This document shows, one piece after another, positions 9,159-59,835 of a stretch of 64,000 nucleotides of DNA (positions are counted from its first letter, which is position 1; every line of letters begins with the position of its first letter). The position numbers were made by a program, and so were the translations under genes. This stretch comes from Eledone cirrhosa. Its lineage: Eukaryota. Below the pieces are notes generated by a model that was given only the letters and a program-made list of their open reading frames with translations, searched no databases and was not told where the DNA came from. The DNA lies in contig OZ024742.1 of the NCBI GenBank assembly GCA_964016885.1, positions 257,424,001 through 257,488,000 of the forward strand. The letters run 5' to 3'.

Positions 9159-11520
9159 TAAAATAAGAGATTAAAGTTTAAGCAAAGAATCGCTGCTTTC
9201 ACCCTTAACGGGATCTTCTGAAACTAACAAAGTCAATCTGTAAACGGAGAAGTGGATATTTCAAAAAACGTTGCAACCGGAGGAAGACAGGAAGACGGTA
9301 CTTTGGTTCGTGGAAACTTTCCCTGGCAAAGAACGGGAAAAAATGAATATAATATGTCATAAATAAGAGCAGTGAAAAACAATTACGCGCAAAGACCGAA
9401 CCACTTTTATGGTATGAAAGAAGTCGTAGGCTAATGTTCTCTTAGGTGGTTCATAGAGACGTTCTCTGGCATTGAACGAAAAAAACGAAGATAATACGTC
9501 ATATGTGGATCGTGGAGAACAATTGCACGCAAAGACAAAACCACGTAAATGGTATAGCTGAAGTCGTAGACTAAATTCTAACTAGGAAACCGAATGTATC
9601 TCCGCTTCAGAGTTAAGAAAAAAGAAAATAAATACAATACAGGGGTAATAAAAATTAAATAAATGCATACACACATTCAAATACGTACATACACAACCAT
9701 ACGTAAAAAACTTGCCATAGGTATACAAAACCACGCACATATAAATATGTGCGTGTGTGTGTGCGTGTATACAAATAAATAATTAAATAAACGTAAATAA
9801 ATAAATAAATACGTATATAACAAGCGCACCCACATACATATATGTAAATATACAAATGTTCGAAGACGTAAGTCAGCCAAAACATGAAGTACACATATAC
9901 GCACACCCTACATACGTACGAACCTGCATACACACGCAGACGCAAAACTCCCGTATACACATAAGCAAACCATATGTACCAGAAAATATGAGAAAATTAT
10001 ACGCCACAACATAATCTATCAAATATACGTATGAGGAAGTATACGTACATTCACAAAACATACAGGTAATATATAATTACCTATGCAAATAAGTAATGGT
10101 ATAAACGAAACATATACTTAGCTACCATATCAAGACGTAAAAAATCCACGTATAGATCGTACTATCCGTTAGGGTATAATGTGGGGCTGTAATACAGGAA
10201 AGTTTTGTGCAATTTATGTTTACAAGCCGAAATTGCCTCAGATTTTTTGTTTAAGATGTGGTCTGTGGCGTAGAGTATTTCCAGGGCCTCAACGGCGCAG
10301 AGGTCACATGTTCTTTTATTTCCGTTATACGATCTAGCCCTAGCTAGGATCTCCCAGTGTAACTTAAATTAGGTGTGGTTGTCTTTTAGACTCCAGATAT
10401 AAGCTGAAAGTGACGTCATATTCCTTCTAGGAGGGTAACGAAAATAATGGGTATGCATGTAAAGACGCTGCTTGAATCTATTGGCGGTTGACCTTATGTA
10501 GGCCCTACGGGACGTGGGTGTTTCAACCTTACATTTGTAGACAATGTTAATAGAGAGGCATTTCCCGGATAGGGGGCAATCAACCCGATTCCTACAATTA
10601 CAGTTAGTACTAACTACAGGGTTGCACGTGTTCCTACGGTTAGGTAGTTTAGCTAAATTTGAAGCTGTGATGTTATGTGCAAGGTTAGGAGTCGTAGAGT
10701 AAGAAATTCTAATAGTCTTTCTGTTAAAAATGTTACTATATTTATGTGTAGGGGGAAAATGCTTCGTAATAAGGGAAATAAAGATCTTAGCTAATGGTGT
10801 GGCCACTTCCATATTATATGGTGGGTTATACCAACAAATGCGACGGATCTATTACTTCTAGGTCTATTTTCGTACTCTGTATATGCTACCTTATCGACAA
10901 ATCCACTTTGAGCAAGAGCTTCATTGTAATAAGTGGAATGGTCGTTGAAAATATGCTCGTTAGTAGATAGACGTGAAAGCCTCAACGAAACTTTTCTTAC
11001 CAGGTTCTTGGTTATGCTGGCAGGATGGTTGGAATGCTTACTTATGTAATTAAGCGTATCATTCGGCTTTCTATACGGGTAATACAGCCCATTCGATAAA
11101 TTGAGGGTAACGTCGAGGTAATTAACGACCGAGAGATTGGAATCAACCTGAATAGAGAGGTTGAAGCCTTTATAGAAGGCTGTGAGTTCTTTTCTGAACA
11201 TGTCTCAAGAACGAGTTCCGCACTTAGTCATGTTCAAAAGACCATCATCACGGTACAAACCACCGCCAGAGTTGGGGAATTCGTCCTTGATAGAGAAAAA
11301 GAAGGAAAAGGCCGATAAGAAAAGTAACCTCCACAGAATCGCTAGCGCCCATACTCACGTCGAATGGGGTACTATTGGATTTTTTAATCCAAATAGAGTC
11401 GTCGAAATTAATCACCGACTTACGGGCATTGAGGATGACATCAACTTCGAAATCCTTAACCACTGTGAGTGTTTTAGCGAAATTGATAAGTCTAAGGAGA
11501 AGTGGTAAAGTGATGGAGGA
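9155..11520 (-). mobile_element. Penelope-like retroelement, 5'-truncated (left arm of inverted pair): RT C-terminus, GIY-YIG, 3' repeat
   Basis: GLYRDDGL RT motif near 11250; VNYLDVTL..YRKPND (ORF 10791-11201); CNCR..CPLSGKCL..IVYKC..AYI GIY-YIG (10369-10812); frameshifts and stops; ends at (AT)n. Confidence 0.9.
9175..9225 (-). ncRNA. Hammerhead-like motif with variant core CAGAAGA
   Basis: agttt-CAGAAGA-t ccc gttaa ggg t-GAAA-gca..tgc-TT-aaact; stems I-III pair. Confidence 0.55.
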
Positions 11521-12859
11521 GTAGTAATTAAGGATTTCGAAGTTGATGTCATCCTCAGAAAAGAACTCACAGCCTTCTTTAAAGGCTTCAACCTCTCTAT
11601 ACAGGTTGATGCCAGTCTCTCGGTCGTTAATTACCGCGACGTTACCCTCAATTTATCGAATGGGTTGTATTACCCGTATAGAAGCCGAATGATACGCTTA
11701 ATTACATAAGTAAGTATTCCAACCATCCTGCTAGCATAACCAAGATCCTGGTAAGAAACGTTTCGTTGAGGCTTTCCCGTCTATCTACTAACGAGCATAT
11801 TTTCAACGACCATTCCACTTATTACAATGAAGCCTTGCTCGGAGTGGATTTGTCGATAAGGTAGCATATACAGAGAACGAAAATAGACCTAGAAGTAATA
11901 GATCCGTCGCATTTGTTGGTATAACCCACCATATAATATGGAGGTGGCCACACCATTAGCTAAGATCTTTCTTTCCCTTATTACGAAGCATTTTCCCCCT
12001 ACACATAAATATAGTAACATTTTTAACAGAAAGACTATTAAAATGTCTTACTCTACGGCTCCTAACCTTGCACATAACATCACAGCTTCAAATTTAGCTA
12101 AACTAACTAACCGTAGGAACACGTGCAACCCTCTAGTTAGTACTAACTGTAATTGTAGGAATCGGGTTGATTGCCCCTATCCGGGAAATCCCTTTCTAGT
12201 AACATTGTCTACAAATGTAAGGTTGAAACACCCACGTCCCGTAGGGCCTACATAGGGTTACACCGGCAATAGATTCAAGCAGCGTCTTTACATGCATACC
12301 CATTCTTTTCGTTACCCCCATAGAAGGAATATGACGTCACTTTCAGCTTATATCTGGAGTCTAAAAGACAACCACACCCAATTTAAATTACAATGGGAGA
12401 TCCTAGCTAGGGCTAGTTCGTATAACGGAAATAAAAGACCATGTGACCTCTGCGCCGCTGGAGCCCTGGAAATACTCTACGCCACATACCACATCTTAAA
12501 CAAAAAATCTGAGTCAATTTCGGCTTGTAAACATAAATTGCACAAAACTTTCCTGTATTACAGCCCCACATTATACCATAACGGATAGTACGATCTATAC
12601 GTGGATGCTTTACGTCTTGATGTGGTAGGTAAGTATATGTTTTGTTTATACCATTACTTATTTGCATAGGTAAGTGTAGATTACCTGTATGTTTTGTGAA
12701 TGTACGTATACTTCCTAATACGTATATTTGAATGATTATGTTGTGGCGTATACATTTTTTATATTTTCTGGTACATATGGTTTGGTTATGTGTATACGGG
12801 AGTTTTGCGTCTGCGTGTGTATGCAGGTTCGTTCGTATGTAAGGTGTGTGTATATGTGT

Positions 12860-20551: not shown

Positions 20552-21700
20552 TGGCAGTGTTGAATATATTCTGGTGACATGGGTTGTGTGTCACACAACC
20601 CATGTCACCAGAATATATTCAACACTGCCAAAGCAAACCTACCGATCATTGCTCAAAGTAATGAATTAAAAGGCTTAATCACAGATCGATCTTTGACTCT
20701 TAGTAAAAGACAGCCAAAAAATGTGAAGCAATTGCTAACAAAAGCAAAGTTTGACCTTAACAACAAAGATCAATCATTCACTGTATCTAAATGCAATGAT
20801 AATCGATGCGGCACATGTCAATCCATACACGCCGGTCAATATATGAAAACAAAAACTGGAAAAATATTCCCAAATGCAAATATGAACTGCAAAAGCAGAA
20901 ATCTAATTTACTGCATTAAATGCAGAACTATATGTCGGTCAAACTGGAAATGCACTATCGGAAAGTGCACGGGTACACCGTCAACAAATCAGAGACCCAA
21001 ATGTCCGTCAGATACCCCTAAGCGGCCACCTGGCAACATGTGGTCAGGGAATATTTATAATATTCCCATTCTACAAATTGCACAGCCCAAATGAAATCAA
21101 GAGAAAAATCAAAGAAAAGAATTTGATTAATAAATTCAAACCCAAGCTAAATGAACAATAATAAAGCCTAGGGGTATTACTTATACTACCACTATGACCA
21201 CGACCACTCACAACAACAACAACAACAATAATAATAATAATTGTTTCTACAGTGATGTTGATGGTGATGATTAATAGAAAATGCTATTTTCATCATTTCA
21301 AAAAGCAAAACAATTGATACGTTGGGTATGACTATTGGTCGTTAGCATGCTCAACCAGCCGTGACGCTTAAACCAATCAGCTGTAGTAATTCAGTGAAAC
21401 TACACACTGATTGGTCGAAATACAGTTTACAGTTCTTTGCATTCTGGAGCCACTTTTCTCTGTATAAAATGTATAAAAGTTAGGAAATTTACCCATCTCA
21501 TTACAGTTGAAAATTGCAAACTCGACTGTCACCACATATCATGAACCTGAAGATTGCGAAAGCATGGAAGTACTTGTTCAATTAACACTTAGAATTTAAT
21601 ATTCTATCATACTATTTCATTATAATACCATTATATTTATTTTAAAGGATTGTAAATAAAACGAGCAAATCAGACAAAGTTGGAATTCCTCTTATTAATA
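20551..21700 (+). mobile_element. PLE 3' fragment: Zn-finger/GIY-YIG endonuclease plus 3' repeat
   Basis: ORF 20579-21094 [29 protein letters not shown]; continues in another frame to FKPKLN; paralog of 33167-34380. Confidence 0.88.
21542..21580 (+). ncRNA. Minimal type I hammerhead with GAAA mutated to GGAA
   Basis: tgaac-CTGAAGA-ttgcgaaagcat-GGAA-gtac-TT-gttca. Confidence 0.6.
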
Positions 21701-22237: not shown

Positions 22238-25200
22238 CATTATCTATAAAAGGCAGATTGTTGTTGTTGTGTGTGTGCGCATGTTCCATGTTTATACATT
22301 TGCACAATTTCAAACCGATTCGACTCAACGTCGGTAAGAATGTTATAAATGGTCAACGAATATTTATTTATTTCCACTTCACCCACAATTACGGAAATAA
22401 TCGATAAAACTAAAAACATGACGCTTTACCCCTCTAATACAATGTGATTTACTCTCCCTAACTCCGATACATACCGCAACCTTCTCTTATATACGCTTAT
22501 AAACCCACTCCTTAATAATTTTCTTTAGCGAGAGAGAAAAAAATAAAGGAGGTAGCCAGAGAGACAGAGATAGAGACAAACGTTAAATACATGACGCTTA
22601 CATCTCTTATATATGCTTATAAACCCACTCCTTAATAATTTCACACAATTACATGTTGTGTATAACTTATTTACACGTTTGAGTGAAAAAAAAAACACAT
22701 AGGGATTTTTGGCCAAACAACTTCACATTGCTGACAGAAGCGCGCTTTAAACAAACTGTGAATTCTTTATTTGCTTCTGTAAGAATGTTGTAAATGGTCT
22801 AACTTAGGTCAACGACTATTTATTTATTTCAAAATCACTATCAATTACGGAAATAATTTCCTCACTCTACTCCACATAAAAATCGAAAAAAAAAGAATAC
22901 ATGCTCACACACAATTACATTTTGTGTATAACAGATTTACACGTTTATTGAGTGAAAAAAAAAACTACATAGGGATTGTTGGCCACACAACTTCAAATTG
23001 CTGACAGAAGCGCGCTTTCAAAAAACTGTGAGTTATTTATTTGCCGTTCGTTCTCCCACTTTTTACCCTGAGGAACGCAGACAGTTTTCAGCCTTATACT
23101 TTCAAAGGCAATTTTGCTGTAGAAGTAAGTTTCACCCTTTCTTGTTCACATAAAATGCCACCTAAAAAGAGAAGTCGCCTCGGTTGCCATACCGCGTCAG
23201 CGGCGGTGCAGAGGGCGATTACAGCAAACGTGTCCCCCGAGGAAACTGCTTTAAGACTTTCACAGAGATCCTTACGTTCAGCGGAATGCAGAGCTGCTGA
23301 AAGTTTTCAACAACGCACCGCACACCTAGCCAAGATGGCTTCACACGACGCCTCGAGACGTGCTGCGATGTGCGATTCAGAGCGGGCGATACGTCATTCC
23401 CCCCAAAAAAACGCTTCTACTGCTACTTCCAGGGCTTCAGAAGGCCCGGAACAAAGGTCGACTCGCCTGAATAGAAACGCTCCTGCTACTGCTGCTTCTA
23501 GGGCTTCAGAGGGCCGGGAACAAAGGGCGGCTCGACTGACTAGAAAAGCTGCGGCTACTGCTGCTTCCAGGGCTTTGGAAGGTTTTGAACGGCGGACGAA
23601 TCGCCTTGCTAGGAACGCTGCGGCTATGACTGCGTCCATGGTTTCTGAAGATGCAGACGGGCGCTCCATTAGGATTGAAAGGGTGGCTTCTGCTACTGCT
23701 GCGAGAGCTTCCCACGACCTACAAGAGCAACATTCTACGTTGGAGCGGAACAGTCGACGACAAGAAGCTGCTCGCGGTGTAACGAGCCCCGACAGCCCAT
23801 ACTGGCACCTACGGGCTTTCAAGTATGAGCCCAACGTTAACTACTCGATGCGTGCCGAGATAAATATAGGGGAAATTCGCTTCCATTGCAAATTCTGCAA
23901 TGCTAAAAAGTGGGCTGGGGAGCCACGTGCAATGTGCTGCTTAAACGGTAAGGTCAGCTTGCCCCCTCTTGGAGAACCACCAGAGCCTTTGAAGGAACTA
24001 CTTACTGGTTCTACCTCCAGGTCATCCAAGTTCCTTCAACTCATCAGGAAGTACAATTGTGCGTTTCAAATGACTTCTTTCGGGGCTAACGTTGTCAGAG
24101 AAAGTGGTTGGATGCCTACTTTGAAGGTCCAGGGGCAGGTGTACCATCTTATTGGGTCGCTCCAGCCACTACAAAATTGCAAGCCTTAGTTCCTTCAAAT
24201 TTACTTCATTTCTAACTACAGTAGGCAAGTTGATGCGCGGTTCGGCGTTATTCCAACACCTGCAAACATTGACGCTGACACCTTTGAAAGGACGTGCTGC
24301 TCGGTCTTCAAAACATACTTCATGAGCACGACAGTTATATTCGCAGTTTCAAATACGCATTGGAAACAAATCCTTCACCAAACTTCACCATTGTCATCGA
24401 TGCTGTCAAAAGACCTTCTAGGGAGCACGTACGCTGTTATGACGCTCCTCCGTGCAATGAAGTGGCCGCAGTTATCCATTGTGAACAGCACAATAAACGA
24501 GACATAGTTCTTCAAAGTTGTGACAGTGGTCTTCGACGTATTAATGAGACGCATCGTTCATACGACGCCCTGCAGCATCCCCTTCTTTTTGCATTCGGAG
24601 AAGACGGGTACCATTTAGGCATTCCTCAGCACAAACCAAACGAGCCCACTGCTGCGACATCTAAAACTGTTTCATGCATGGCTTTATACTCCTACCGCTT
24701 CATGACGAGGCCTAACGATTTCAGCACCCTGCACAGGTCACGGGAAGTGTTTCGCCAGTTTGCAGTTGAGATGGCTACAAAGATGATGTCGGAGAGATTG
24801 TGCTTCATAAAAGTAAATCAGAAGCAGCTGCGCTCTGACTCCTACATCCATTTGCGTGACGGCATCAGGAATGATACTGACCCCAGGAACATCGGCAAAA
24901 TGTGCATTCTCCCCTCAACCTATACGGGGGGCCATTGTACATGCACGAGCGAACACAGGACGCTATGCCGTTCGTTCGGCATTATGGTGATTTATTGATC
25001 ACGTTTACGTGTAACCCCAAGTGGGTTGAGGTTACGCGAGAACTTATCCCAGGGCAGCAGTACTGCCATCGGCATGATATTATTGCCAGGGTTTTCAGGC
25101 AGAAGCTGGCTAAGCTAATTTGATCTTATTGAAAAAGGGAAGGTTTTCGGGCCTGTTAGGTGCCACATGTATACTGTTGAGTGGCAGAAGAGAGGGTTGC

Positions 25201-28200
25201 CATACGCGCACATTTTGGTTTATTGGTCACCAAAATAGACCCTACAGTTATAGATGACGTCATCGCAGCGGAAATACTGGACCCCGTTGTTGACCAGAAG
25301 CTGTACGACATTGTCAAGGCACACATGGTGCCGGTCCGTGCGGTCCCGGTTTTCAAGAGTTTCCTTCATGCCACAAGGACCATATCTGCACTAAACGATA
25401 CACAAAGAGGTTTGTTGAGGAGACCCAGACCGGCGGCGACGGATACCCACTGTACAGACGAAGGCGGCCTGGGAACGGTGGATTCACTATGACGTTACGG
25501 GGTCATCAAGTTGATAATAGGTGGGTGGTCCCATACTGTCCATTTCTGATGAAAACTTTCAACGTTCATATAAATGTGGAGTTCTGTCATTCAGTGAAGT
25601 CAATAAAGTACATATGTAAATATGTTAACAAGGGTTCCGACGCTGCCATGTTCGGCCTTCAAAACGACGATAGCAGGGACGAGGTGTCGGAGTACTTGGC
25701 AGGTCGACATATCAAAAGTGGTGAACCTTTTTGGCGGATATTCGGGTTTCCATTTCACCAAAGGCACCCCGCTATCATACAACTAGCGGTTCATTTGGAA
25801 AACGGCCCGCGGGATTACTTTACTGAACAGACTGCTGCTCATTTGGCGGCCAATCCAAAAGAAACAACTTTGACTGTTTTTTTACGCTTTGCCAACTTGA
25901 CACATTTGCAAAAAAACTTACAGACCCTCAGGTCCCGTCCTACTACGTGTGGTCAAACAACACTTGGGTGCGTAGGAAGTCAGGTCTGGATGCTGAAGGA
26001 CATCCTGGTGTCAAGTTTGACAGTTTTCTAGGAAGAGTGTACACTGTACCTCCCAACCAGCATGAGTGTTTTCACCTGCACCTTCTCCCCCATGAGGTTT
26101 TTGGCCCACAAAGCTTTCGAGACATAAGAACTGTTGACGGTGAATTATGTGACACTTTCCGGGAAACCTGCTTTAGGCGTGGCCTTTGGGAGGAGGATTC
26201 ACAATGGGGCGCCACTATGGCAGAGGGCGTTTTGTTGATATCTCCTAAAAGACAAAGATCGCTTTTCGCTATTCTACTCCTATGGTGAAACATGTGTGAT
26301 CCGGCCTCTTTATGGCTTAGCTACAAAGATTACATGTCTGAAGATTTCCTGCGTCACGCTCAGTTTCTAAACCCATCGATAGAGGTCGGGTACAGTGACC
26401 TCATTTACAACAGGGCGCTGCTTGAGATCGAAGATACTGTTTTCGATATGGGCGGGAGTGCGTTGGCGGTGTATGGCCTACCTTCAACAAACCGGGAAGG
26501 CGCAAACACTCTGTCTTCGGATTTGCTGCGTGAGACATCTTATAATGTTGACGAGCTTGCCCAGTACATAGCGGAGAAAGAGCCAAAGCTCCTTCCAGAA
26601 CAGAAATTCGCTTACAACTCCGTTGTTAATTCCGGGGCAAAGCTGATGGGATTTTTTTCCTGGACGCTCCTGGGGGGACTGGGAAAACCGTTGCCACCAA
26701 ATTAATATTAGCTGAGATTAGGCGAACAGAAGGCATTGACTTAGCTGTGGCATCATCTGGAATTGCGGCTACTTTGTTGCCGGGCAGCAGGACAGCTCAC
26801 TCCTATTTCAAGCTCCCGCTTGACTTAGCAAAGACTGAGACACCCACTTGCAACATCAGTAAGAGCTCCGATCAGGCAGAAGTGTTCAGACAATGCAAGC
26901 TTATCGTTTGGGACGAATGCCCACATAGGTGCTCTTGAGGGGCTAGATAGAACTCTGAGAGACATCAAAGACTCTACGGCTCCAATGGGAGGCATAACAC
27001 TTGTTCTTTTAGGGGACTACAGGCAAACGCTTCCCGTTATTCCCAAGGGGACTAGAGCTGATGCAGTACGTTCGTGTCTTAAGTCATGCACATTGTTGCC
27101 CCTGGTGAAGACTCTGAAACTTCACACTAACATGCGTGCTCATATGCGAGGTGATATCACATCAGCAGCATTTTCTCACACCCTCCTTGCACTTGGCGAA
27201 GGCAAAACGCCCGGGGATGAAAAGGGTAATATTGCCATCGACTTACTTTGTACCGTTGTTAGTACGCCTTCTGATCTCAAAGATGCAGTGTTCCCATATC
27301 TCCAAGCAAATTATCAGAATATGGTTTGGCTTGCCCAAAGGGCTATTCTGGCCCCGAGGAATAAAACTGTTAATCATATTAATGAGCAAATGCTAAGTCT
27401 CATTCCTGGGGATGGCTACGTATATAAGTCTATCGATAGAACTCCTGACCCCGAGGACGTCATCAACTATCCAATAGAGGTACTAAATTCCTTTGAGACC
27501 CCGGATTACCCCCACACATTTTGAAACTTAAAGTTGGTGCCTCTATAATGCTCATTCGAAATTTGGTTCCGCCGAAACAATGCAATGGCACACGTTTGGT
27601 CGTTAAGTCCTTAGCTCCCAATCTGATTGAAGCCACGATAATCACAGGGTGCAGTCGGGGCAAGCTTGTGCTCATACCGAGGATGCATCTTTTCACATCA
27701 GGAGCAGACCTACCTTTCACATTTCGGAGGTCCCGGTCAGGCCATGCTTCGCAATGTCAATTAACAAAGCGCAGAGACGAACACTGTCTGTCGTGGGAAT
27801 ACATTTGGGGGAGCCGTGTTTCTCTCATGGTCAACTTTACGTTGGCTGCTCGCGTGTCGGCATCAACAGTAATGATTTCGCGTTCGTTCCGCGAGGAAAA
27901 ACAAAAAACATTTTATAACTTTTTTATTTTTTTATTTTTTTTGCCTTGTCGTGAGTATTTTCTAAGTAGGTTAACCTTCACTGAAGTGCACTGGACACTC
28001 CCCACCATCTGTCGTACAAAGGCTGATTCTCGCGGCGTTACAAAGCTTCATTGCAACTCCGACCCTACTCAAATATCAGCTGTTGCTCTTCACCAACCAC
28101 GTTTGGTGGGCCTCGGAGGACCGTGGACAGGTTAGTATTTCACCTCCGTACGACTCTCAAAGGGTCAACAATGCTTTAATGACGGGATTTACATTTTTAG

Positions 28201-28844: not shown

Positions 28845-28983
28845 GTCTGCTAATATGCAGATCTGACAAGAAACTAACTGGCCAGTCTGCTTATATTCAA
28901 ATCTGGCTGATCAGTGGATCTGCTAATATGCTGATCTGACTGATCAGCCAGTCTGCTAATATGCAAATCAGGCCGATCAGTCA
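28845..28983 (+). repeat. Four ~33-bp tandem units containing octamer-like TAATATGCAAAT
   Basis: gtctgctaatatgca(a/g)atc..g.c.gatcag repeated; last unit has an exact ATGCAAAT. Confidence 0.8.
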
Positions 28984-29045
28984 CTGTGTATTTTTGAAAA
29001 TAGCATATATTTTCACTAGCTCTGACAGTTTAACAGGTGAAGAGT

Positions 29046-29095
29046 GAGCTGTACTGATGAAGGGTGATACCCAGAAACATTAGTGTCTGCAGTTC
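29046..29095 (+). ncRNA. Type I hammerhead ribozyme
   Basis: gagctgta-CTGATGA-a ggg tgata ccc a-GAAA-cattagtg-TC-tgcagttc; 8-bp stem I; GUC cleavage triplet. Confidence 0.8.
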
Positions 29096-30664
29096 TGTTC
29101 ACATGCCAACACAAGAGCAAGAATGAATGGTTTATTCTACTGACATGGCTATGAAATTGAGGCTTGCTTGCATAATTGCAAACGAATCGAATGTTTTTAA
29201 TATTCGAAAAACTCAGATTATATATATATATATAATATGTGTGTCGGTATACTTATATATATTTGCACTTTTGTCTGAAGACAAGACTAACATCCATTGC
29301 TTAAAACTTCAGAATGAGTTAATGTATATTAGCTAAAGAAACATCAGCAGCGTTATATTTTTCCATTTATATATTAATATCAATTGCTGGGGATAAATTT
29401 AAAAACAAAATAATTCGAAATATTTACTAGTGTCTAATAACTTAAGTGTCATATTCACTTCAATTTAAATTGAAATAATTTTACTACACTATGGAATAAA
29501 CATCGTTGTATTCGAAGACATGTCTAATAATTCAATCTACGTTTTGTTTTTAAAACTGTAAATATCAAAATGTAGACCTTTGGCTATTTCATATATAAAT
29601 GTTAAAGATGTTATAACTGAAGTAACTGAATGCAAAAGAACAGATATATTTAGGAAGGCCAATATTGACGTGTCATTCACTCTGTGTAGAAATATATATA
29701 TATATATATTTCTTCGAAGGTGGGTTACACAGCGCTTTCATTGTACAATACATTGTTTATGGAAGTATTATATAATGTTAAGTAACCTTTTCATTGCCAT
29801 AGTTTATTTACCTTATTTCTAATGTAAGCCACTGCCTATACGTTTCTAATCATTTCGAAAAATAATCAAGATTTCGTAGGCATCTAACAAATAAACGAAC
29901 TTACTCTAAATGACTCTGGAGTTCGGAACGTTACATAAGATTATGTTAGAATTCTTTAGATAATAAAAAAAAAACTTACTTTGCAGATTATAACCATGTG
30001 TGGTCTCTGGTAGTTTGGTACCAAAATACTATCTTACAAGCACTCAATTCGTCCATGATGTCTAAGCCACTGGAATGAAGATTAATTTCATAAAAGTTAA
30101 CATAACAAACCTTCGCTAATAACAGCTGAAATAATATTAACCCAGTTCCTGCTAATTACTTATAATGATATATTAAAAATCACAAGATGTATAATAAGAG
30201 CTCGTGTATATCTCATTAATAGCTTACAATCACTTTAGTATACCATGCATACCACTAACTCAATTCTCTCAACATGTACGTAATCAATAATTTCTGTTTA
30301 ACAAAGGTCAACGCTGGTTTTCATCGTTCCATGTGCAATAGGATGAATTACATGTATCGTAATAGATCAACATCCTTCGCTACACTTCTACCTATATCAC
30401 CTCTGTTTTTATCGTTGCCATAAATCATGATTTAACTTACTCATTTGTAGTATTATTTGTTTAGATTTGTCTCGAAAATGTTGATTCTTCTCATAAACTC
30501 GCCTATATTTATCGTGTGTTTAAATAGTAAACAATTCTAACAGTTACCGTAAACATAAACGGTTTCACAGACACGTATATGACCTGGCATCAGATAATAA
30601 TTATAGCTAATAATTTTTAAGCATAGATACTCCTATACTACGCTAATCAAGAAGTAGTATTTCA

Positions 30665-48459: not shown

Positions 48460-51260
48460 CTATTGGGTTGATAACCCGTTTAGTTTTGGTTTAAATTTGT
48501 TGAGGAATAGATTTTCTTTGTTTATTCTTTGTTGCTGTGTGAACGAATCTGAGCACTTGTAGAAGGGGAAGATTTTAAAGTTGGGTAGTGTCATTCCTGC
48601 GCAGTTCGCAATATGGCTGCTCAAGGGGATTTTTCTTGTGTTAGCGTCCCGGATTTGTTGGCGGTGGATGGTCATTCTTTTGCGTAATGAGGTGCCCGTC
48701 TGTCCTATGCAGTTGTGTTTGCACCCACCGCAAGTTATTGCGTAAATCAAGTTCTCCGAGTTGCAGGTGAAATTGCTTTTTACTGTAAATGTTTGGCCAT
48801 CTTTAAATGTAAATTTTTGTCCTTCAGTGAGGTAGAGGCACGTTCCACAGTTTGTTCTACCACATTTGGTAACTGTAGGGTTGAGGATTGGTTTGGGTAT
48901 ATTTGGTCCAGTGAGAATGCGTTTTAGTGATTTGGGTTGTCTTTTACTTTTAAGGATCTTGTGTGTTTCAAGAATAGACTTCATTTTTACATCTTTAAGT
49001 AGGATCGGGAGGTTTTTGTGTAGGTGATCAAACATTTCGGTATTTCTGGGGTTGAAAGTGGATACATATGGCAGGGTGTGGTTTTCTGTTTTGGATTGTT
49101 AAGTTGATGGGGATTTAGGTGTTTTGCCCTGTCTATTCCATTGTTGATTATTTCAAGTGGAAAGGCTCTTAAGATAAGGGTGTCTTTTAGTTCCTTTAGT
49201 CTTTGCTCCCGTTTAGGTGGATCTGATACTATGGTACATATACGTTTGGCCAAATTGTAAGGAATGTTAAGTTTTGTATGTTTTGGGAGATTTGATGTGA
49301 AAAAGAGGTATTGCTTGGAATCTGTGGGTTTATAGAATATATCTGTATCTAATTTCCCGTCTATTACAGAGATGAGAATATCCAAGAAGGCTAATTCCTT
49401 GGGATTAGATTCCATTGTGAATTGTATGTTATTGTCTATGTTGTTTATCATGTTTTTAAACATAGTAAGTGAGTTCATGTCTTCTTGCCATAGGATAAAG
49501 CAGTCGTCTAGATATCTTTTCCAATTGGCTTTGAGGTGTGTGTGGAAAGAGTCTCCAAATAAGAGAAGGGACTGACTGTATATTTGTTGTTCATGGAATC
49601 CCATGACTAGGTTGGCATATGTGGGTGCTACTTTTGTACCCATTGCCGTACCTGATACTTGACTGTATGTTGAACCATTGAATGTGAAGTAGTTATTTTG
49701 TAGGATAAAGCGGAGTCCGTCAGTGATAAAATATTTGTTGATGCGTGTCGGTATTTCTGATGGGTGTGTGTGAAGCCAGTATTGGACTGCTGTTATTCCA
49801 TAGTTGTGGGGTATGTTTGTGTAGAGGTTTATTACGTCAAAGGAGACAAGAATTGTATTTGCACTTACTGTTTTAGGGAGGTGTTTCAGCATGTCAAGGT
49901 CATCTCGTATGTAGCTCTGTATATGTTGTAGAAAGGGTTTCAGTAGGATGTCCAGAAAGTTGCTAAGTCTGTGGGTTTCACATGTAGGGCCTGCTATAAT
50001 TGGTCTGAGTTTTAGGTCTTCTGGTGGTGTTAGTTCAATGTAATTGTTGGTTGAAGTGTCACATGCATCGTTTATGGGTTTACATTTGTGGAGTTTCGGT
50101 AAGCCGTAAAAAGAGCTTGTATTGCATTTGAAGTGGCTTATATAGTTAAACTCTTTGTGGTTAAGCTGTTGCGGTATTTATTCAGTAAGGTCAAAAGGTT
50201 CCCCATTGTTTTGGTGTGTTTGTAGTTTTCTGTTTTTTCATAGTATGTGTTGTTTTCTAAAATGTTAAGTGCGAGGGTCCTATAGTAGTCCGTATTCATA
50301 ATGACAACAGTACTGCCTTTATCGGCTTCTTTGATAGTTATCTCAAAGTTGTTTCTAAGTGTGAATAATTCTTCCCATTCGTGTGTAGATAGGTTTGATT
50401 TCGTGTGTTTATTTGTAATTTTTTCATAGGGAAAGTTGGTGATGTGTTCGCAGTACGTGTCCAGTGCTTTATTTCTTCCCTTTTGTGGGCAGAAATTGCT
50501 TTTATTTCTAACCAGTGATTCGTCTTCAGTGTTGGTGTCGTTGTGGAAGAATTCCGTTAGTCGCAGCTTTCGGCAGTATTCCATGATGTCATCCTTCATT
50601 TCGGGGAAGTTTGGTTTACGCGGTGTAGGTGGAAATTTCAGGCCCTTACTTAAAATGTTGATTTGTGTGTTGGTTATAGGTGTCTTTGAGAGGTTGATTA
50701 TTGTTGGTTTCTCCTGAGGGGGGGGGGGGGCATCGAGTATCCTGGTATTTCAGGCTTTTCTCTAAAAAAGGAATGTAGTTTTGTGTGTGATTATATTTTG
50801 TTGGTTTGTTGCGTGTGGGTCTGTAGCTTGTTGTTTCATGAGGGTGAATGTGATGGTGGGGGTTATATGTGTTGTGGTTGTTGATGAGCAAGGGTTCTGT
50901 TGTTGGTTCATGTGGTCTGGGTGCGTTATTTCTGTGGTACAGAGTGTTGAGGTTGGGGGGTTGTCTTTTGTTGGATTGAGGGTGATGTCTGGTGTGGTTG
51001 TGGGTAAGTTCTGTTGTGATTTCAAGTGGTCTGGGTGGATTTCTTCTGAGGAATGTGGTGTGTGTGTTGTGAGTTGGATCTATGTTATTTCGGCGTTGGT
51101 TTATGTAGGGGGCATTTCTACGGAAACCTGTGTTGTGGTGGTTGGGTGTGTTTCTTTTGGTGTAGTTGGCCGTATTTGGTTTGTGTTGGTGGGGGATGTG
51201 CCTGTGGTTAGTGTGTGTTGGGTTTGGTGGTGTAAATGTGTCTATTGTAGTTCTTGTTAT
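48460..51260 (-). mobile_element. Near-complete PLE (Neptune-like): Thr/His-rich N-terminus, RT, Zn-finger GIY-YIG; few frameshifts
   Basis: IKEADKG, RPIIAGP, SFDVINLYTNI, QVSGTAMGTKVAP, RYLDD, FLDI, FYKPTD; KCGRTNCGTC..NLIYAITC..CIGQT..FKPKLN. Confidence 0.93.
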
Positions 51261-51274
51261 ATATATATATATAT

Positions 51275-51820
51275 ATATAAATTAATAAAAATAATGAATA
51301 AAAACAAAGAAAACGTTTCTTATATTAAAAAATTCATTATTTTACGATCGTTTCTAGGATATACATGTTTGTGTTGGTATGTATATCATATAGATCTATG
51401 TAAAATGTTTACAAACTATCAGAGGAAATATACATACCTACACATATATATATGCTGTCTTCAGAAATAATGATATTTGTTTATTGAAAAAATCCAACAA
51501 AGATTTAATATAAAAGGTCTGTTTGGGAACAGGTTTTGAATTGACCAATAGAAAGGTAGTAAGTGGTCAATATGGTAGAATAGTAGTAATAGAACTTTAA
51601 TTTAGGGGTAGAGGAAAGCAGATATCAGTTTTGAATGGAACGAGTATGATGAATGAAAAGATTATTTTAGGGATGAAAATAGGTCAAGTCGGTAAAAGGT
51701 ACAAGAAAAATTGATGCTATAAAAGAATAATGCTAATGTAAATATCTAAGGAGATAACATTTTACGATAAATGGGTTAGTGAAAATTATCAATCTTATTT
51801 AAAATATAGGGAATTTACAT
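51275..51820 (-). mobile_element. Second copy of the long-stem-II HHR repeat family
   Basis: Aligns with 40135-40678; starts at (AT)n. Confidence 0.85.
51334..51473 (-). ncRNA. Type I hammerhead with about 100-nt stem II
   Basis: tcattattt-CTGAAGA-long hairpin-GAAA-CGATCG-TA-aaataatga; 9-bp stem I; GUA triplet. Confidence 0.8.
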
Positions 51821-52285: not shown

Positions 52286-52324
52286 GGATATCCTTACATA
52301 TATGTATACAGACGTACAGTAGCA

Positions 52325-52394
<70 letters not shown>

Positions 52395-52825
52395 CATACA
52401 GGTACACATATATACATGTACGTATCAGTTTAGCGGACGTTTATTATAACGCCCGCTTTGTCCGTTTGTAAACAAACGGACAGCCTGATTTATGCCGTAC
52501 GGTGTTAAGGCAACCACGTCACCTTTTTGTTCAACACTGACACAGGAACGATGTACTAGTTTCAAGCTTCTTAGCTATCATCAGCTCCGTATACCCTTCT
52601 GCCAGATGGTTGAACGTTCGAAAGTATATACTTTCCTTATGAAAATTAACGGCTGAGCAGCCTAATTTGCATATCGAGTGAGTTCAGTCGGCCAGGCGTA
52701 CCGAAAACGATAAGTTGTAATATAATGAAACGAAATTTCATTTCTCTCTCTTAGTACGGCACTTACTCAAATGTAAGTATGTACGTATACGTACATACAT
52801 ATATGTATACAGACGTACAGTAGCA

Positions 52826-52870
<45 letters not shown>

Positions 52871-53267
52871 TTACAGGTACACATATATACTTACATTTAA
52901 GTAAGTGCCGTACTAAGAGTGGGAAATGAAATTTCGTTCATTATATTCCAACTTATCGTTTTCGGTACGCCTGGCCGACTGAACTCACTCGATATGCAAA
53001 TTAGGCTGCTCAGCCGTTAATTTTCATAAGGAAAGTATATACTTTCGAACGTTCAACCATCTGGCAGAAGGGTATACGGAGCTGATGATAGCTAAGAAGC
53101 TTGAAACTAGTACATCGTTCCTGTGTCAGTGTTGAACAAAAAGGTGACGTGGTTGCCTTAACACCGTACGGCATAAATCAGGCTGTCCGTTTGTTTACAA
53201 ACGGACAAAGCGGGCGTTATAATAAACGTCCGCTAAACTGATACGTACATGTGTATATGTGTACCTG

Positions 53268-53363
<96 letters not shown>

Positions 53364-53471
53364 GGGTACTGTACGTCTGTATACATATATGTATGTACGT
53401 ATACATACATACTTACATTTAAGTAAGTGCCGTACTAAGAGTGAGAAATGAAATTTCGTTTCATTATATTC
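52286..53471. mobile_element. Retrozyme-like family R: head-to-head pair of more-than-unit-length copies (pivot about 52890); HHRs at 52548-52590(-) and 53076-53118(+)
   Basis: Inverted arms; each arm is terminally redundant (acttacatttaagtaagtgccgtac at 52889 and 53411); CTGATGA-tagct aaga agctt-GAAA-CTAG-TA. Confidence 0.85.
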
Positions 53472-53657
53472 GGTGGATTGGCAGTATCGGTGGAGGGTTG
53501 GACGCCATGCTTTCTAGCATAGTTACGTCCCTTTACGATCTGAGTTCAAATCCCGCAGAGGTTGACTTTGCCTTTCATCCTTACGGGGTCGATAAAATAA
53601 AGTACCAGTAATGCACTGGGTAATTGCTGGCCTTGTGCCTAAAGTAGAAACAATTAT
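53472..53657 (+). mobile_element. SINE family A, near full-length
   Basis: tggcagtatcgg A box, gagttcaaatccc B box; same tail as other copies. Confidence 0.88.
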
Positions 53658-53666
53658 ATTACAACT

Positions 53667-53697
<31 letters not shown>

Positions 53698-54285
53698 ATA
53701 TGCTTCTCTTTTATCTATCTATCATTCTCTCTCTCCCTCACTCTCTCTCTCTCTCTCCATATATATATATATACGTGTGTTTCTAATAATTGTAACAGTA
53801 ACGGTCATACTGTAAATATTGGTTGACTGCATATAGATGAATTTTTGACTTATGTAGGCTATAATTATCAAAGTTTGTTTGAATAAAAAAAATATTTGAA
53901 TGTTTTTGTTTGAATGCCGTAGTATTGCTCATGGATTAATTTAAATTAATTGCTATATAGATTGAAAAGTCTACTAAAATATGCATGCATTTATTTTTAC
54001 TATTTTGCTACTTAAGTTAGATGAGTTATATATTCCTTTTTTGCCTTCTGGGTGGAGTAAAAATAAATACTTAACTGTATTTTGAATAAAATACATTGCT
54101 ATTTTCAATCATGAGACAGCTATTGTGTTGAGATATTGTATAAAAATTGTTTTTATTTGATCATATCGATCTCATTGCAACTTTTCAACTCTAGTAAATG
54201 ACAGGTGATGACAGATCAAACAAAAATAAAGTAATGTATTACCTACTATATTTCAACTTAGGTCAATTAATAAAGAACACACAAA

Positions 54286-55075
54286 ATTCGTTTTCATTTT
54301 AACTGTTACAGCTCCACATTTAAAAACAGGATAATGGCCCTGAAATACCATGTTAAACTATACAGGGTAACACATTTTTGCTCTTTTTATATTTGTCATG
54401 TGTCCTTTATATGTTTTTAACGCACTTTTCTGCGCAACTATGAAAATATATACTTTCAAACGTTCAATCAACTTACAGGAAGGTATACGGTTATGATGAC
54501 AGCTAATAAGCTAGAAATAGTTCATCGTTCCTTTGTCAGTGTTGAAAAAAATGGCACCGATAGTTGCCGAACACTGTACGGCGAATAATTCGGGCTATTT
54601 GTTTACAAACAAACCGAGCATAATAATAAATGTTCGGTAAGCCAAAAGGAAATATATATATAAATGTGTACATATATGTATGTATATACATACTACTGTA
54701 CGTCTGTATACATATATGTATGTCCGTATACATACTTATATTTAAGTCTCAGCCGTACTAAGAGTCAGAATTGACATTTCATTTTTTCCATTTATCGTTT
54801 TCGGTAAGCCCTGCTGACTAACTCACTCGATATTCAAATTAGGCTGCTCAGCCGTTAATATGCATAATGAAAGTATATACTTTCAAACGTTCAATCAACT
54901 GACAGGAGTGTATACGGTGCTGATGACAGCTAATAAGCTAGAACTAGTTCATCGTTCCTTTGTCAGTGTTGAACAAAATGGCAACGATGGTTGCCGAACA
55001 TTGTACGGCTAATAATTCGGGCTGTTTGTTTACAGGCAAACCGAGCATTATAATAAATGTTCGGTAAACCCATAC

Positions 55076-55163
<88 letters not shown>

Positions 55164-55212
55164 ATACATACTACTGTACGGCTGTATACATATATGTATG
55201 TACACATAGATA

Positions 55213-55306
<94 letters not shown>

Positions 55307-56506
55307 TGTAAGTATGTATCTATACGCACATACATATATGTATACAAACGTACAGTAGTATGTATATATACATACATGCACACATATATATATATGTACG
55401 TATGGGTTTACCGAACATTTATTATAATGTTCGGTCTGTTTGTAAACAAACAGACAGCCCGAATTAAGCCGTACAGTGTTCAGGCAACCATCGGCGCCTC
55501 TTTGTTCAACACTGACACAGGAACGATGTACTAGTTTCAAGCTTATTAGCTATCGTCAGCATCGTATACCTTCCTGCCAGATGATTGAACGTTTGAAAGT
55601 ATATACTTTCATCATGCATATTAACGGCTGAGCAGCCTAATTTGCATATTGAGTGAGTTAGTCGGCAGGGCTTACCGAAAACGATAAATGGAAAAGAATG
55701 AAATGAAATTTCATTTCTCACTCTGAGTGCGACTGATACTTAAATGTAAGTATGTATAATATACATATAAATATAAGTATGTACGTATACATACATACGG
55801 CCGACTAACTCACTCGATATACAAATTAGGCTGCTCAGCCGTTAATATGCATAAGGAAAGTATATACTTTCAAACATTCAATCATCTGGTAGGAAGTTAT
55901 ACGATGCTGACGATAGCTAATAAGCTTGAAACTGGTACATCGTTCCTGTGTCAGTGTTGAACAAAGAGGCGACGATGGTTACCTGAACATTCGTTTTCAT
56001 TTTAACTGTTACAGCTCCACATTTAAAAAGAGGGTAATGGCCCTGAAATACCATGTTGAGACATACAGGGTAACACATATGTTTGTTCTTTTTATATTCG
56101 TCCTTTATATGTTTTTAACCCACTTTTCTGCGCCACTATGAAAGTATATATTTTCAAACGTTCAATCATATGCAAGGAAGGTATACGATGCTGACGATAG
56201 CTAATAAGCTTGAAACTAGTACATCGTTCCTGTGTCAGTGTTGAACAAAGAGCCGACGATGGCTGCCTGAACAATGTACGGCTTAATACGAGCTGTTTGT
56301 TTGTTTTCAAACAAACCGAACATTATAATAAATGTTCGGTAAACCCATACGTACATATATATATATATGTGCATGTATGTATATATATATACATACTACT
56401 GTACGTCTCTATACATATATGTATGTGCGTATACATACATACTTACATTTAAGTATCAGCCGTGCTAAGAGTGAGAAATGAAATTTCGTTTCATTCTTTT
56501 ACATTT
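54286..56506. mobile_element. Retrozyme-like family R cluster with five HHRs: 54487(+, decayed), 54914(+, GAA), 55523-55565(-), 55901-55943(+), 56185-56227(+)
   Basis: acgatg-CTGACGA-t agct aata agct t-GAAA-CTAG-TA-catcgt; tandem period 427 bp between the first two HHRs; mixed orientations. Confidence 0.85.
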
Positions 56507-56689
56507 ATATATATATAGATGGAGGAATCTATAGTTTACGTGTTGCATTGCATATGGTATAAAGAATTGGAAGTTTGAATGCCACGACAATGGGAAATGA
56601 ACGAATTAATAAATAACCAAGTCGGATGAAATAAGAAGCATTTTTACCTTATTTCTTTAAGTCCTGATATTTCGAGATTCAAGGTCATC

Positions 56690-57730
56690 TCGGGGATAGC
56701 TGTCCGCATAGTGAGTGTCTCGAGTGAGCTAGTTTTAAGTCTATCCCCTCACTTCGGATAGCAGTTGCTGTGCCATCACTGAAATGTGGGAGCATCGGGA
56801 AGCAGATCTTGGTGAAGTTCGTGTTTCGAATGAAGTGTTTCCTATTTCTAAGGTGATTCAACTTGGATGTTAGGTAACCGTTTAGCATAATCATTTCACA
56901 GAATTGTGTGGTGTGCATGTCTCGGTCTCCTGTAGTGCTTCATTTACTCCAAATATGTCTCAGTTCATTCGTTATATATCAAGGCCTGGTACCAAGGGGA
57001 AGAGCCAATTTAAAAGGGAAAAACAGGTCATTGATGTCGGCTTTTTAGCATGGACGCCGCCTTTTTCCGTTACAGTTAGTTGGGAGTCAAGCAGGGAAAT
57101 GGCATCCTGTGTCATCGGGGAGTTCCCTGCTGTATCATTATGTTAATGTTCATACTAGAGAATGCTGTGTATAGTTTGTCTGCATCTTTACAGGATGGTG
57201 TAATGATGAGTATGCCATCTACATATCGGGTGAAGAAAACACAGAAGTGGCAATGTTTGAGGGTCAGACGTTCTAGCCGGTTCATGTACGTTGTGGCCAG
57301 CAGGCCCGATAGGCTGGATCCCATAGATAGTCCTGTTGATTTGCTGTATGCGTGTTGGTAGAAGTTGAAGTAAGTATTATCCACCGTAATGTTTAGAAGC
57401 TGGTGTATGTTTGACAGGCGGAGGCCATAGCAGTATATGTTCTCAAAGACAATGAAGTCCGTCAATAAATTGAGAGTTGGGTGAGCAAAACTGTAGTTTA
57501 GAGGGAGACAAGTCGAAAATAAAGGGCGTACCTTTTGATTCTATGGTGGTCTGATTGGAGTTGATGGAGTCTTGTAAAACTTCCTCGGAGCTACTGAAAT
57601 GACGGAAGGTGGAGAGGATAGACATAAGTATCTGGGTGAGGAGTCAAAACATTCTATATCGAGGTCCTTCTATGCTGGAGACGATAGGTCTCATTTTGAG
57701 TCTGGTATTATTTTGTGGGCCTTAATGAAT
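56690..57730 (-). pseudogene. Decayed PLE reverse transcriptase fragment
   Basis: NTYFNF..GLSMGSSLSGLLA..YM..FTRYVDGIL (ORF 57112-57465). Confidence 0.75.
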
Positions 57731-57841
57731 CTACTCACCCAGATCTATAAGTATGTAGAAGAAATATTTATAACACCAACTATGAATGAAGAAGGTAATT
57801 TTAACTTGTTGACTGACACTCCTTTCTTATCTCTCTCTCTG

Positions 57842-58234
<393 letters not shown>

Positions 58235-58580
58235 TTAAGCTCTGTTACCTACATAGAGCACTCTTTTTCCCAGACTTTTCCGACGTAATTACTTCCTTTA
58301 CACACACATACACACACATATATATATATATATATAAATATATAGTATTAAGGATACTATTTATAGTTATGTATATACTAAAACCTTTTATAGTTATATA
58401 TATTTTTAAACCCTAAATAGTGAAAGACAGTAATTTATTACTATCTTATTACCAGTAAGATAAATAGCTCAATGTAATAACATCAGTTGTTTTACAGAGC
58501 AGTTATATAGAAATTACATGAATCAATGTTCATTTTAAGCAAATAAATGATTTAAACTGAACTTTGATTCATGTAATTTC

Positions 58581-59690
<1,110 letters not shown>

Positions 59691-59835
59691 CTAGTATTTA
59701 TTGCTATCATACCATAAGTTTATTCTATATATATAGACATATATATATACACATATAAATACATAGACATATACATATATACACACATATATATATATAT
59801 ATATATACACACATACATATATACATACATTCACA

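What the first reader, a model, noticed from the sequence alone, without database searches (positions are those of the whole stretch)
52286..56506. Retrozyme-like structured RNA family with seven HHRs, tandem/permuted units, covarying hairpins and an internal (AT)n
Seen: a non-coding unit of about 430-520 bp (HHR period 427 bp at 54487/54914; terminal redundancy period 522 bp at 52889/53411; length differences lie mostly in the internal (AT)n). Copies start and stop at different points and occur in both orientations. Two hairpins downstream of the HHR show compensatory changes: gtccgtttg..caaacggac (53185) vs gtctgtttg..caaacagac (55436, minus) vs gtttgtttg..caaacaaac (56295); and gcgggcgtt..aacgtccgc (53210) vs ccgaacatt..aatgttcgg (56316). 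Established: metazoan non-LTR retrozymes are HHR-containing tandem repeats processed to circular RNA. Inference: this is a selected RNA structure, probably a circRNA copied by PLE RT. A microsatellite inside the unit could seed new (AT)n targets.
Basis: partly seen in the sequence, partly recalled or inferred. Interest (0 to 1): 0.87.

Follow-up and report, generated by a model that had tools for sequence, protein, structure and literature searches.

The report
Self-cutting RNA repeat riding Penelope elements
This is a non-coding repeat of about 420-520 bases, present more than 17,000 times in the genome, that carries a hammerhead self-cutting RNA motif and a likely small-nuclear-RNA-type promoter, and its insertion ends have the same shape as those of a Penelope-like jumping gene in the same genome, so it likely spreads as a predicted circular RNA copied by such an element's enzymes.

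Summary
There are seven type I hammerhead (HHR) motifs (five intact), the stated periods are right, and the hairpins covary. They belong to three separate insertions of one dispersed family with at least 17,000 HHR copies. It fits the non-LTR retrozymes; cleavage and circular RNA are untested (no RNA run listed).

One correction: only the 5' ends are random. The 3' ends fall at two sites, usually on (TA)n. In inverted insertions one arm ends short and the other long (35 of 37), a median 59 nt apart. A co-resident Penelope-like element (PLE) shows the same short/long ends with a 58-nt tail and has no detected sequence homology. This is in-genome evidence for mobilisation by PLE enzymes.

The unit also carries the 12-mer found at -77 of host U6 genes, plus a U1/U2-like box and TATA. 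At least five other divergent HHR families share this octamer upstream of the HHR (1,623 matches against 1 control). The internal (AT)n is a variable hairpin tip, absent from a sister family; 5 of 189 carry later insertions.

Verdict: new variant of a known kind.

The parts
52295..52889 (-). Insertion 1, inverted arm (about 1.05 units, young subfamily); its 3' end lacks the usual (TA)n flank
   Evidence: identical to the plus arm over 226 core positions, sharing one variant seen in none of 98 other loci
52890..53667 (+). Insertion 1, direct arm (about 1.15 units), long-type 3' end into (AT)n; interrupted near its end by a SINE-like repeat
52548..52590 (-). Type I HHR, intact core, predicted cleavage after 52554
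52993..53046 (+). Predicted snRNA-type promoter: U6-like octamer 12-mer 52993-53004, U1/U2-like TCAG box at 53010, TATA inside the palindrome 53031-53046
53076..53118 (+). Type I HHR: helix I 6 bp, helix II 4 bp closed by U.U, palindromic 2-bp helix III; predicted cleavage after 53112
53166..53435 (+). Predicted multibranch domain closed by a long-range helix (53166-53173 with 53428-53435). It holds the two covarying hairpins (53184-53207, 53210-53233), the long AU hairpin whose tip is the (AT)n (53273-53360), and the small hairpin (53412-53427) in whose loop the short 3' ends fall
53445..53471 (+). Palindromic hairpin just before the long 3' end site
53472..53657 (+). Unrelated SINE-like repeat inserted later, with a short target duplication
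   Evidence: 'SINE' is a recalled label
54287..54440 (+). Piece of an unrelated older repeat (U), 5' flank of insertion 2
   Evidence: none of the 28 fetched matches outside this window is followed by the unit
54441..55218 (+). Insertion 2 (C.A / GUU subfamily, about 1.7 units, 5'-truncated, short-type 3' end into (AT)n); both HHRs (54487-54528, 54914-54955) have core lesions
55216..55301 (.). (AT)n tract shared as target by the 3' ends of insertions 2 and 3
55306..55797 (-). Insertion 3, inverted arm, short-type 3' end; HHR 55523-55565
55798..56506 (+). Insertion 3, direct arm: partial unit with HHR 55901-55943, a second copy of U (55990-56137), then a unit with HHR 56185-56227 (predicted cleavage after 56221) and long-type 3' end
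   Evidence: the three pieces share one private variant

Best explanation
This is a high-copy non-coding hammerhead repeat (non-LTR retrozyme type) that is likely transcribed from a predicted snRNA-type promoter inside each unit, predicted to be cut to unit length by its hammerheads and likely closed into a circle, and likely copied into (TA)n tracts by the reverse transcriptase and endonuclease of a Penelope-like element. Shown: unit anatomy, copy number, tandem and inverted arrangement, two fixed 3' end sites paired short/long, (TA)n flanks, and covarying structure. Inferred step 1: transcription starts about 10-15 nt before the hammerhead and runs through tandem units. Step 2: the hammerheads, with a 2-bp palindromic helix III and a weak helix II, cleave best as dimers in the multimer; the long helix around the cut holds the two ends together for ligation. 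Step 3: the PLE enzyme nicks both strands of the self-complementary (TA)n target. One strand primes at the long site and the other at the short site about 59 nt upstream; each cDNA runs for a random length, often more than one round, and the two join back to back. Because each copy carries the promoter, any copy with two hammerheads can be a new source. The best partner candidate is the (TA)n-targeting PLE whose 3' end lies at window 58750-59690.
For: 16,197 + 1,125 HHR matches, controls 0, plus a further 422-bp subfamily. Young copies are 98-99% identical, in arrays up to about 8 units. 3' ends cluster. Of 62 inverted insertions in 99 loci, 37 have both ends in the two classes: 35 short+long, 2 long+long, 0 short+short (binomial p 1e-8 against 50%). 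All 35 have at least 15 nt of (TA)n on one side; 54 of 70 ends have at least 15 nt. The offset has median 59 nt (17 of 35 measurable). The co-resident PLE (GIY-YIG hit; RT upstream in L103) has short and long ends with a 58-nt tail in 4 of 4 tails measured. PMC8557442 (section 6 read) describes inverted truncated copies, a tail at one end only and (TA)n targets as PLE features. A 9-bp target duplication at a non-(TA)n site (L114). Structure: 94% of cells paired, 53 cells with double change against 19.9 in shuffles (0/500), slid controls 27-39% paired. The long-range helix changes on both sides at two positions. Circular monomers give z -4.0 to -10.2 (5 folded); a sister family about 60% identical has the same predicted fold and short+long ends in 6 of 6 double-ended loci. 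Promoter: the 12-mer lies at -77 to -79 in 3 of 5 U6 loci viewed, each from a separate cluster; 2 background hits in 439 kb; octamer-then-HHR pattern 1,623 against 1 control after excluding this family. U.U at the base of helix II occurs in an axolotl retrozyme HHR shown to cleave, better as a dimer (PMC7229834, results read).
Against: No RNA evidence of any kind; cleavage, circles and start site are untested. Single HHR regions fold weakly (z -1.5 to -2.9) and helix III does not form in the MFE structure. In the 2026 preprint 8 of 9 tested frog retrozyme dimers did not cleave. No sequence homology to the candidate PLE was found, so the partner rests on geometry and target only. The sister family's offset is about 68-72 nt, not 58, and published tails are 30-40 bp. 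Covariation counts are not independent events: about seven subfamilies; the pair-level shuffle gave 13/500 and 'further pair types' 500/500. Local hairpins can also be perfected by DNA template switching (own knowledge). The C.A monomer folds slightly better antisense. The promoter is a hybrid (octamer as in U6, spacing as in U1/U2), the box position was chosen after seeing it, and the same bases pair in the predicted RNA fold. 25 of 62 inverted insertions have an end outside the two classes.
Confidence: 0.7

Rival explanations
1. Same PLE-driven copying, but the template is an uncleaved linear multimer read through tandem source arrays; the hammerhead is weak or vestigial and circles play no part.
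For: Nearly all sampled copies run intact across the cleavage site, and 5' ends do not pile up there (1 of 182 within 272-280; the sample was selected to hold an intact HHR, so this is biased). The HHR is marginal as a monomer. Homogeneous source arrays would also give homogeneous daughters.
Against: The catalytic core is kept across subfamilies and in a sister family only 60% identical. Helices join the two ends of the cleavage-to-cleavage monomer. Related animal repeats were shown to be circular (PMC7229834). Units within arrays are near-identical, spacer length included (L029 0 differences; L140 spacers all 37), as expected from repeated copying of one template.
Confidence: 0.17
2. The unit is the pseudo-LTR of an autonomous PLE that was not sampled, and the copies are its truncated 3' ends.
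For: PLE-type geometry; 24 of 60 loci have a PLE protein hit within 8-10 kb; a decayed PLE RT lies next to the finding at 56550-57800. The 2026 preprint finds pLTR homology for 24 of 57 frog families.
Against: Units join head to tail with no ORF. No ORF-to-unit link in 60 loci: the closest cases, L131 and L114, are insertions into a PLE ORF. The neighbouring RT is in the opposite orientation. Among 100 listed copies lacking the octamer at its usual distance, the 6 with unrelated upstream DNA all differ (weak test, about two thirds were a shifted subfamily). Helix II is 4 bp, not the 7-8 bp with bulge of PLE minimal HHRs (PMC4209133 passages).
Confidence: 0.06
3. A satellite or DNA-transposon-type repeat spread by DNA mechanisms (unequal crossing-over, rolling-circle or cut-and-paste), with the hammerhead as a passenger.
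For: Tandem arrays exist (the sister family has an array of about 40 units); many palindromes; TA targets are also used by DNA transposons (own knowledge).
Against: Random 5' ends with fixed 3' ends, strand-specific G.U wobble changes, no terminal inverted repeats, a 9-bp duplication, and the same end geometry as a PLE.
Confidence: 0.04

Closest known systems
Metazoan non-LTR retrozymes (Cervera and de la Pena 2020, PMC7229834; parts 2-3 of 6 and Discussion read, supplement not readable)
   Same: Non-coding low-GC tandem units with a type I HHR, highly self-paired predicted circle; U.U at the base of helix II as in axolotl HHR_Amex2; PLEs proposed as mobilisers.
   Different: Unit 420-520 nt against about 170-400 reported. 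(TA)n targeting, inverted arms with paired short/long ends, an internal (AT)n and a promoter module are not described in the parts read ('inverted', 'microsatellite', 'octopus' 0 occurrences in the main text). Expression and cleavage are untested here.
Li, Clavereau, Pollet 2026, bioRxiv 10.64898/2026.07.22.740005 (parts 1-3 of 5 read; supplements closed)
   Same: Animal retrozymes as non-autonomous PLE derivatives; monomers, dimers and multimers.
   Different: Their evidence is co-occurrence and pLTR homology in vertebrates. Here there is no detected pLTR homology, and the link is the insertion geometry shared with a co-resident PLE.
EN+ Penelope-like elements, Neptune/Nematis-type linker (Craig et al. 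2021, PMC8557442; passages and section 6 read)
   Same: 5' truncation, partial tandems, inverted truncated arm, tail at one end only, (TA)n targets.
   Different: No ORF; tail about 55-61 nt rather than 30-40; small canonical-type HHR instead of the PLE minimal type.
Newt satellite 2 (snRNA-type promoter; Coats et al. 1994, seen only as a citation and title in PMC2220036; paper not held)
   Same: HHR repeat with an internal snRNA-type promoter.
   Different: Here the module is inferred from the host's own U1/U2/U6 genes and recurs in at least six divergent families; polymerase unresolved.

Membership tests
non-LTR retrozyme | Type I HHR in each repeat unit | tested here: met
   (motif and helices; 2 of 7 window copies degenerate)
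non-LTR retrozyme | Short tandem units of a few hundred bp, monomers to multimers | tested here: met
   422-520 bp, somewhat above the published range
non-LTR retrozyme | Non-coding, no LTR-element structure, GC under 50% | tested here: met
   no ORF of 120 aa or more in the region; GC 35-37%; PBS/PPT not searched explicitly
non-LTR retrozyme | Target duplications longer than 4 bp when present | tested here: inconclusive
   9 bp in L114, about 9 bp in L145, of 7 single-ended loci viewed; hidden in (TA)n elsewhere
non-LTR retrozyme | Highly self-paired predicted circular monomer | tested here: met
   64-70% paired, z -4.0 to -10.2
non-LTR retrozyme | Self-cleavage | not testable with these tools
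   needs an in vitro assay
non-LTR retrozyme | Expressed as linear and circular unit-length RNA | not testable with these tools
   no RNA holder listed
autonomous PLE (pseudo-LTR) | Joined to an RT + GIY-YIG ORF | tested here: not met
   0 of 60 loci; not exhaustive
autonomous PLE (pseudo-LTR) | Minimal HHR with 7-8 bp helix II and bulged base | tested here: not met
   helix II 4 bp; criterion from PMC4209133 passages
PLE-mobilised element | 5' truncation, inverted arm, tail at one end only, (TA)n target | tested here: met
snRNA-type promoter | Host snRNA upstream elements in the right order and spacing | tested here: inconclusive
   octamer 12-mer as in U6; TCAG box and 25-nt spacing to TATA as in U1/U2; function and polymerase untested

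The most novel reading that the evidence does not exclude
The genome hosts a guild of at least six sequence-divergent ribozyme circles that each carry a copy of the host snRNA promoter inside the circle. This family is copied by a PLE it does not resemble in sequence, by mimicking the shape and spacing of that PLE's two priming sites (59 against 58 nt). That would name both the promoter type and the enzyme behind animal retrozymes, and show that PLE 'tails' come from two fixed priming sites on the RNA used by the two strands of a palindromic (TA)n target.
Probability: 0.4. Interest if true: 0.8.

Novelty: new variant of a known kind. Interest (0 to 1): 0.6.

Why it matters
For animal retrozymes, the enzyme that copies them is proposed but not shown (PMC7229834 Discussion; 2026 preprint), and how they are transcribed is known for few cases. 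This family gives sequence-level handles on both questions: a named candidate partner with matching end geometry, and a promoter module that can be mutated. Thousands of young insertions act as a record of PLE integration intermediates, so they also bear on the unexplained PLE tail and inverted arm. With more than 17,000 copies it is a sizeable unannotated RNA-element load (Rfam finds none in the window). Searches for a prior description in cephalopods or of this promoter arrangement found none; the library lacks most subscription papers and Repbase.

Tried and rejected
Rfam scan: no hit. RNA runs: no RNA holder listed. Contigs of four unlabelled runs were laid: X1 holds the family at very high summed depth, X6 five low-depth contigs, X4 and X5 none; nothing on expression. 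Segment U as 3' UTR of an autonomous parent: rejected, its other copies are not followed by the unit. The PLE at 48460-51281 and the decayed RT at 56550-57800 as parents: different 3' end or opposite orientation. L131 as ORF-to-unit link: an insertion into an ORF that continues in L141. Exclusion patterns to find a parent gave only more non-coding families; of 23 loci tested by tblastn, 3 had a PLE hit, not inspected further. De novo (AT)n synthesis by the RT: many single-ended copies have (AT)n only on the 3' side, but flanks such as L005 and L131 fit existing tracts plus target deletion, so it is unsupported, not excluded. Fold-back copying as the source of the inverted arm: either arm can be the longer, and only 5 of 51 private variants are shared between arms. 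Pol III as the polymerase: not favoured, since several subfamilies have T5-T7 runs inside the unit, though two young monomers have only T4. One monomer (L114) failed extraction. Helix 4 was out of register in alignment A1 and left out; the closing helix and S-end hairpin counts were partly mis-anchored and not used. Earlier-findings look-ups returned nothing. The supplement of PMC7229834 was unreadable and could list related invertebrate families.

Full report
OBSERVATION. The region holds seven type I hammerhead-like motifs, five with an intact core. Helix I has 6 bp, helix II 4 bp closed by U.U or C.A, and helix III is a 2-bp palindrome; the predicted cut follows GUA or GUU (56221 is right). 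Rfam misses them. Self-comparison and private variants resolve three insertions: an inverted young one (52295-53667, split by a later SINE-like repeat), an older direct one (54441-55218), and an inverted one (55306-56506). The last two point their 3' ends into the same (AT)n tract. The host is a 3.0-Gb genome; it looks like an octopus from recalled repeat features, which I did not test.

FAMILY. An HHR pattern has 16,197 exact matches (control 0), a C.A variant 1,125. A further 422-bp subfamily made up about two thirds of the 100 rows listed of 5,829. The 40 best copies of the young unit are 98-99% identical, some in arrays of about eight. I fetched 60 loci covering most of the first 100 listed matches on the largest contig. 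24 have a PLE protein hit nearby, but in none does an ORF lead into the unit; five were read in full and the rest judged from coordinates and flanks. Units within most arrays differ by 0-3 changes and often share spacer length; one array (L026) differs by 6-13.

ENDS. 5' ends are spread over the unit. 3' ends cluster at two sites just after the internal (AT)n hairpin. In 99 loci there are 62 back-to-back inverted insertions; in 37 both ends fall in the two classes, and 35 of these pair a short with a long end, 2 are long+long, none short+short. The other 25 have an end elsewhere, often at the internal (AT)n or cut by later events. 54 of the 70 paired ends abut at least 15 nt of (TA)n. The offset has median 59 nt in the 17 measurable cases. 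An autonomous-type PLE in the same genome (endonuclease at window 59211-59690, Pfam GIY-YIG; RT upstream in L103) ends either at a short site on (TA)n or after a 58-nt tail (4 of 4), and its inverted pairs combine the two. Craig et al. list this geometry as typical of PLEs. A profile of the retrozyme does not hit that PLE, so recognition would be by shape. That the PLE enzyme primes at the two sites from the two target strands is my inference.

STRUCTURE. On 42 aligned copies (chosen from 71 loci plus window copies), 40 named pairs are 94% paired, with 7 pairs and 53 cells changed on both sides (shuffles 4.6 and 19.9; 13/500 and 0/500), against 27-39% for slid partners. Motif-anchored counts on 164 copies show three common double changes in the second hairpin, two in a helix spanning about 260 nt, and G.U/A-U toggles that keep pairing on the sense strand. 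These are few independent events (about seven subfamilies). Circular monomers fold with z -4.0 to -10.2. A sister family found (466 bp, about 60% identical, G-C-closed helix II, near-identical young copies) has the same predicted architecture and short/long ends, and no (AT)n. The (AT)n is therefore the variable tip of a long hairpin (median spacer 31 nt, n=189), and 5 of the 189 carry later insertions. Single HHR regions fold only weakly, as expected for dimer-dependent hammerheads.

PROMOTER. 89 nt before the HHR core lies a 12-mer identical to the element at -78 of one host U6 gene; two other U6 clusters have near-identical elements at -77 and -79, and two U6 copies lack it. The U1/U2 loci viewed lack it there but have TCAGT 22-26 nt before a TATA-like box. 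The unit has TCAG 25 nt before its TATA and scores above the 99.9th percentile of 20,000 random sites on a matrix from 7 U1/U2 upstream regions (anchor chosen after inspection; the sister family scores only at the 7% level). An octamer-then-HHR pattern that excludes this family finds 1,623 matches against 1 control; this gives at least five other divergent families, one in this window at 28959. Most have a TATA 41-46 nt after the octamer; one copy viewed (L297) has none. Two other HHR repeats seen in passing lack the octamer. Newt satellite 2 is the precedent (citation only). The start site (about 10-15 nt before the HHR) and the polymerase are predictions; internal T5-T7 runs favour Pol II.

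VERDICT. It works like, and on every feature that gave a clear result here is, a non-LTR retrozyme; the target-duplication test was inconclusive, and the two biochemical features could not be tested. The class and the PLE hypothesis are published. What I did not find in the papers read or searched is the paired-end geometry matching a co-resident PLE, the (TA)n targeting, and the shared snRNA-type promoter. Unread supplements (the preprint's are closed) may bear on this. New variant of a known kind; interest 0.6.

Noticed in passing
window 28886-29100 (+); L141:6100-6250; L091: A third HHR family in this window, with repeated octamer-like 33-bp units upstream, TCAGT box and TATA; non-coding.
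   Followed up: partly
L158, L184-L213; G000:C1:95946373-95964832: Sister family, 466-bp unit, canonical helix II, copies about 100% identical, 843 first-look candidates, one array of about 40 units; a variant in L264 has a compensatory helix II change.
   Followed up: partly
L279-L308: Further octamer-HHR families (one abundant with a GC-rich HHR, one old and divergent, one with U6-like spacing also in L121).
   Followed up: partly
L100:6600-8700 (also L077): A 310-bp HHR tandem array with inverted arm, U.U at the base of helix II and no octamer, next to a family-1 array.
   Followed up: no
window 58020-58260: Inverted pair of a PLE-type HHR element between (TA)n tracts.
   Followed up: no
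window 58750-59720 (-): 3' part of a PLE (CX4CxxC linker, GIY-YIG, HHR near 58940, short end on (TA)n); candidate mobiliser.
   Followed up: yes
window 54287-54440 and 55990-56137; copies at 54920 and 55559: A flank segment of insertion 2 is duplicated inside insertion 3 at the same junction, and two copies of different subfamilies share two private variants: local template switching or gene conversion.
   Followed up: partly
window 48460-51281 (-), 10369-11652 (-), 56550-57800 (-), near 20564 and 33763: Several other PLE copies of different families, frameshifted or decayed.
   Followed up: partly
window 23032-28135 (+): Decayed Helitron-like Rep/helicase coding pieces (label from recalled motifs, not searched).
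   Followed up: no
L214-L216, L229-L274: Host U6 genes have an octamer directly at -77 to -79; U1/U2 have TCAGT at -56 to -58 and a TATA-like box near -31, unlike the textbook TATA-less animal U1/U2 (own knowledge).
   Followed up: partly
flanks in L064, L089, L093, L126, L135: Several unrelated repeats pile up in the same (TA)n tracts, often 3' end to 3' end.
   Followed up: no
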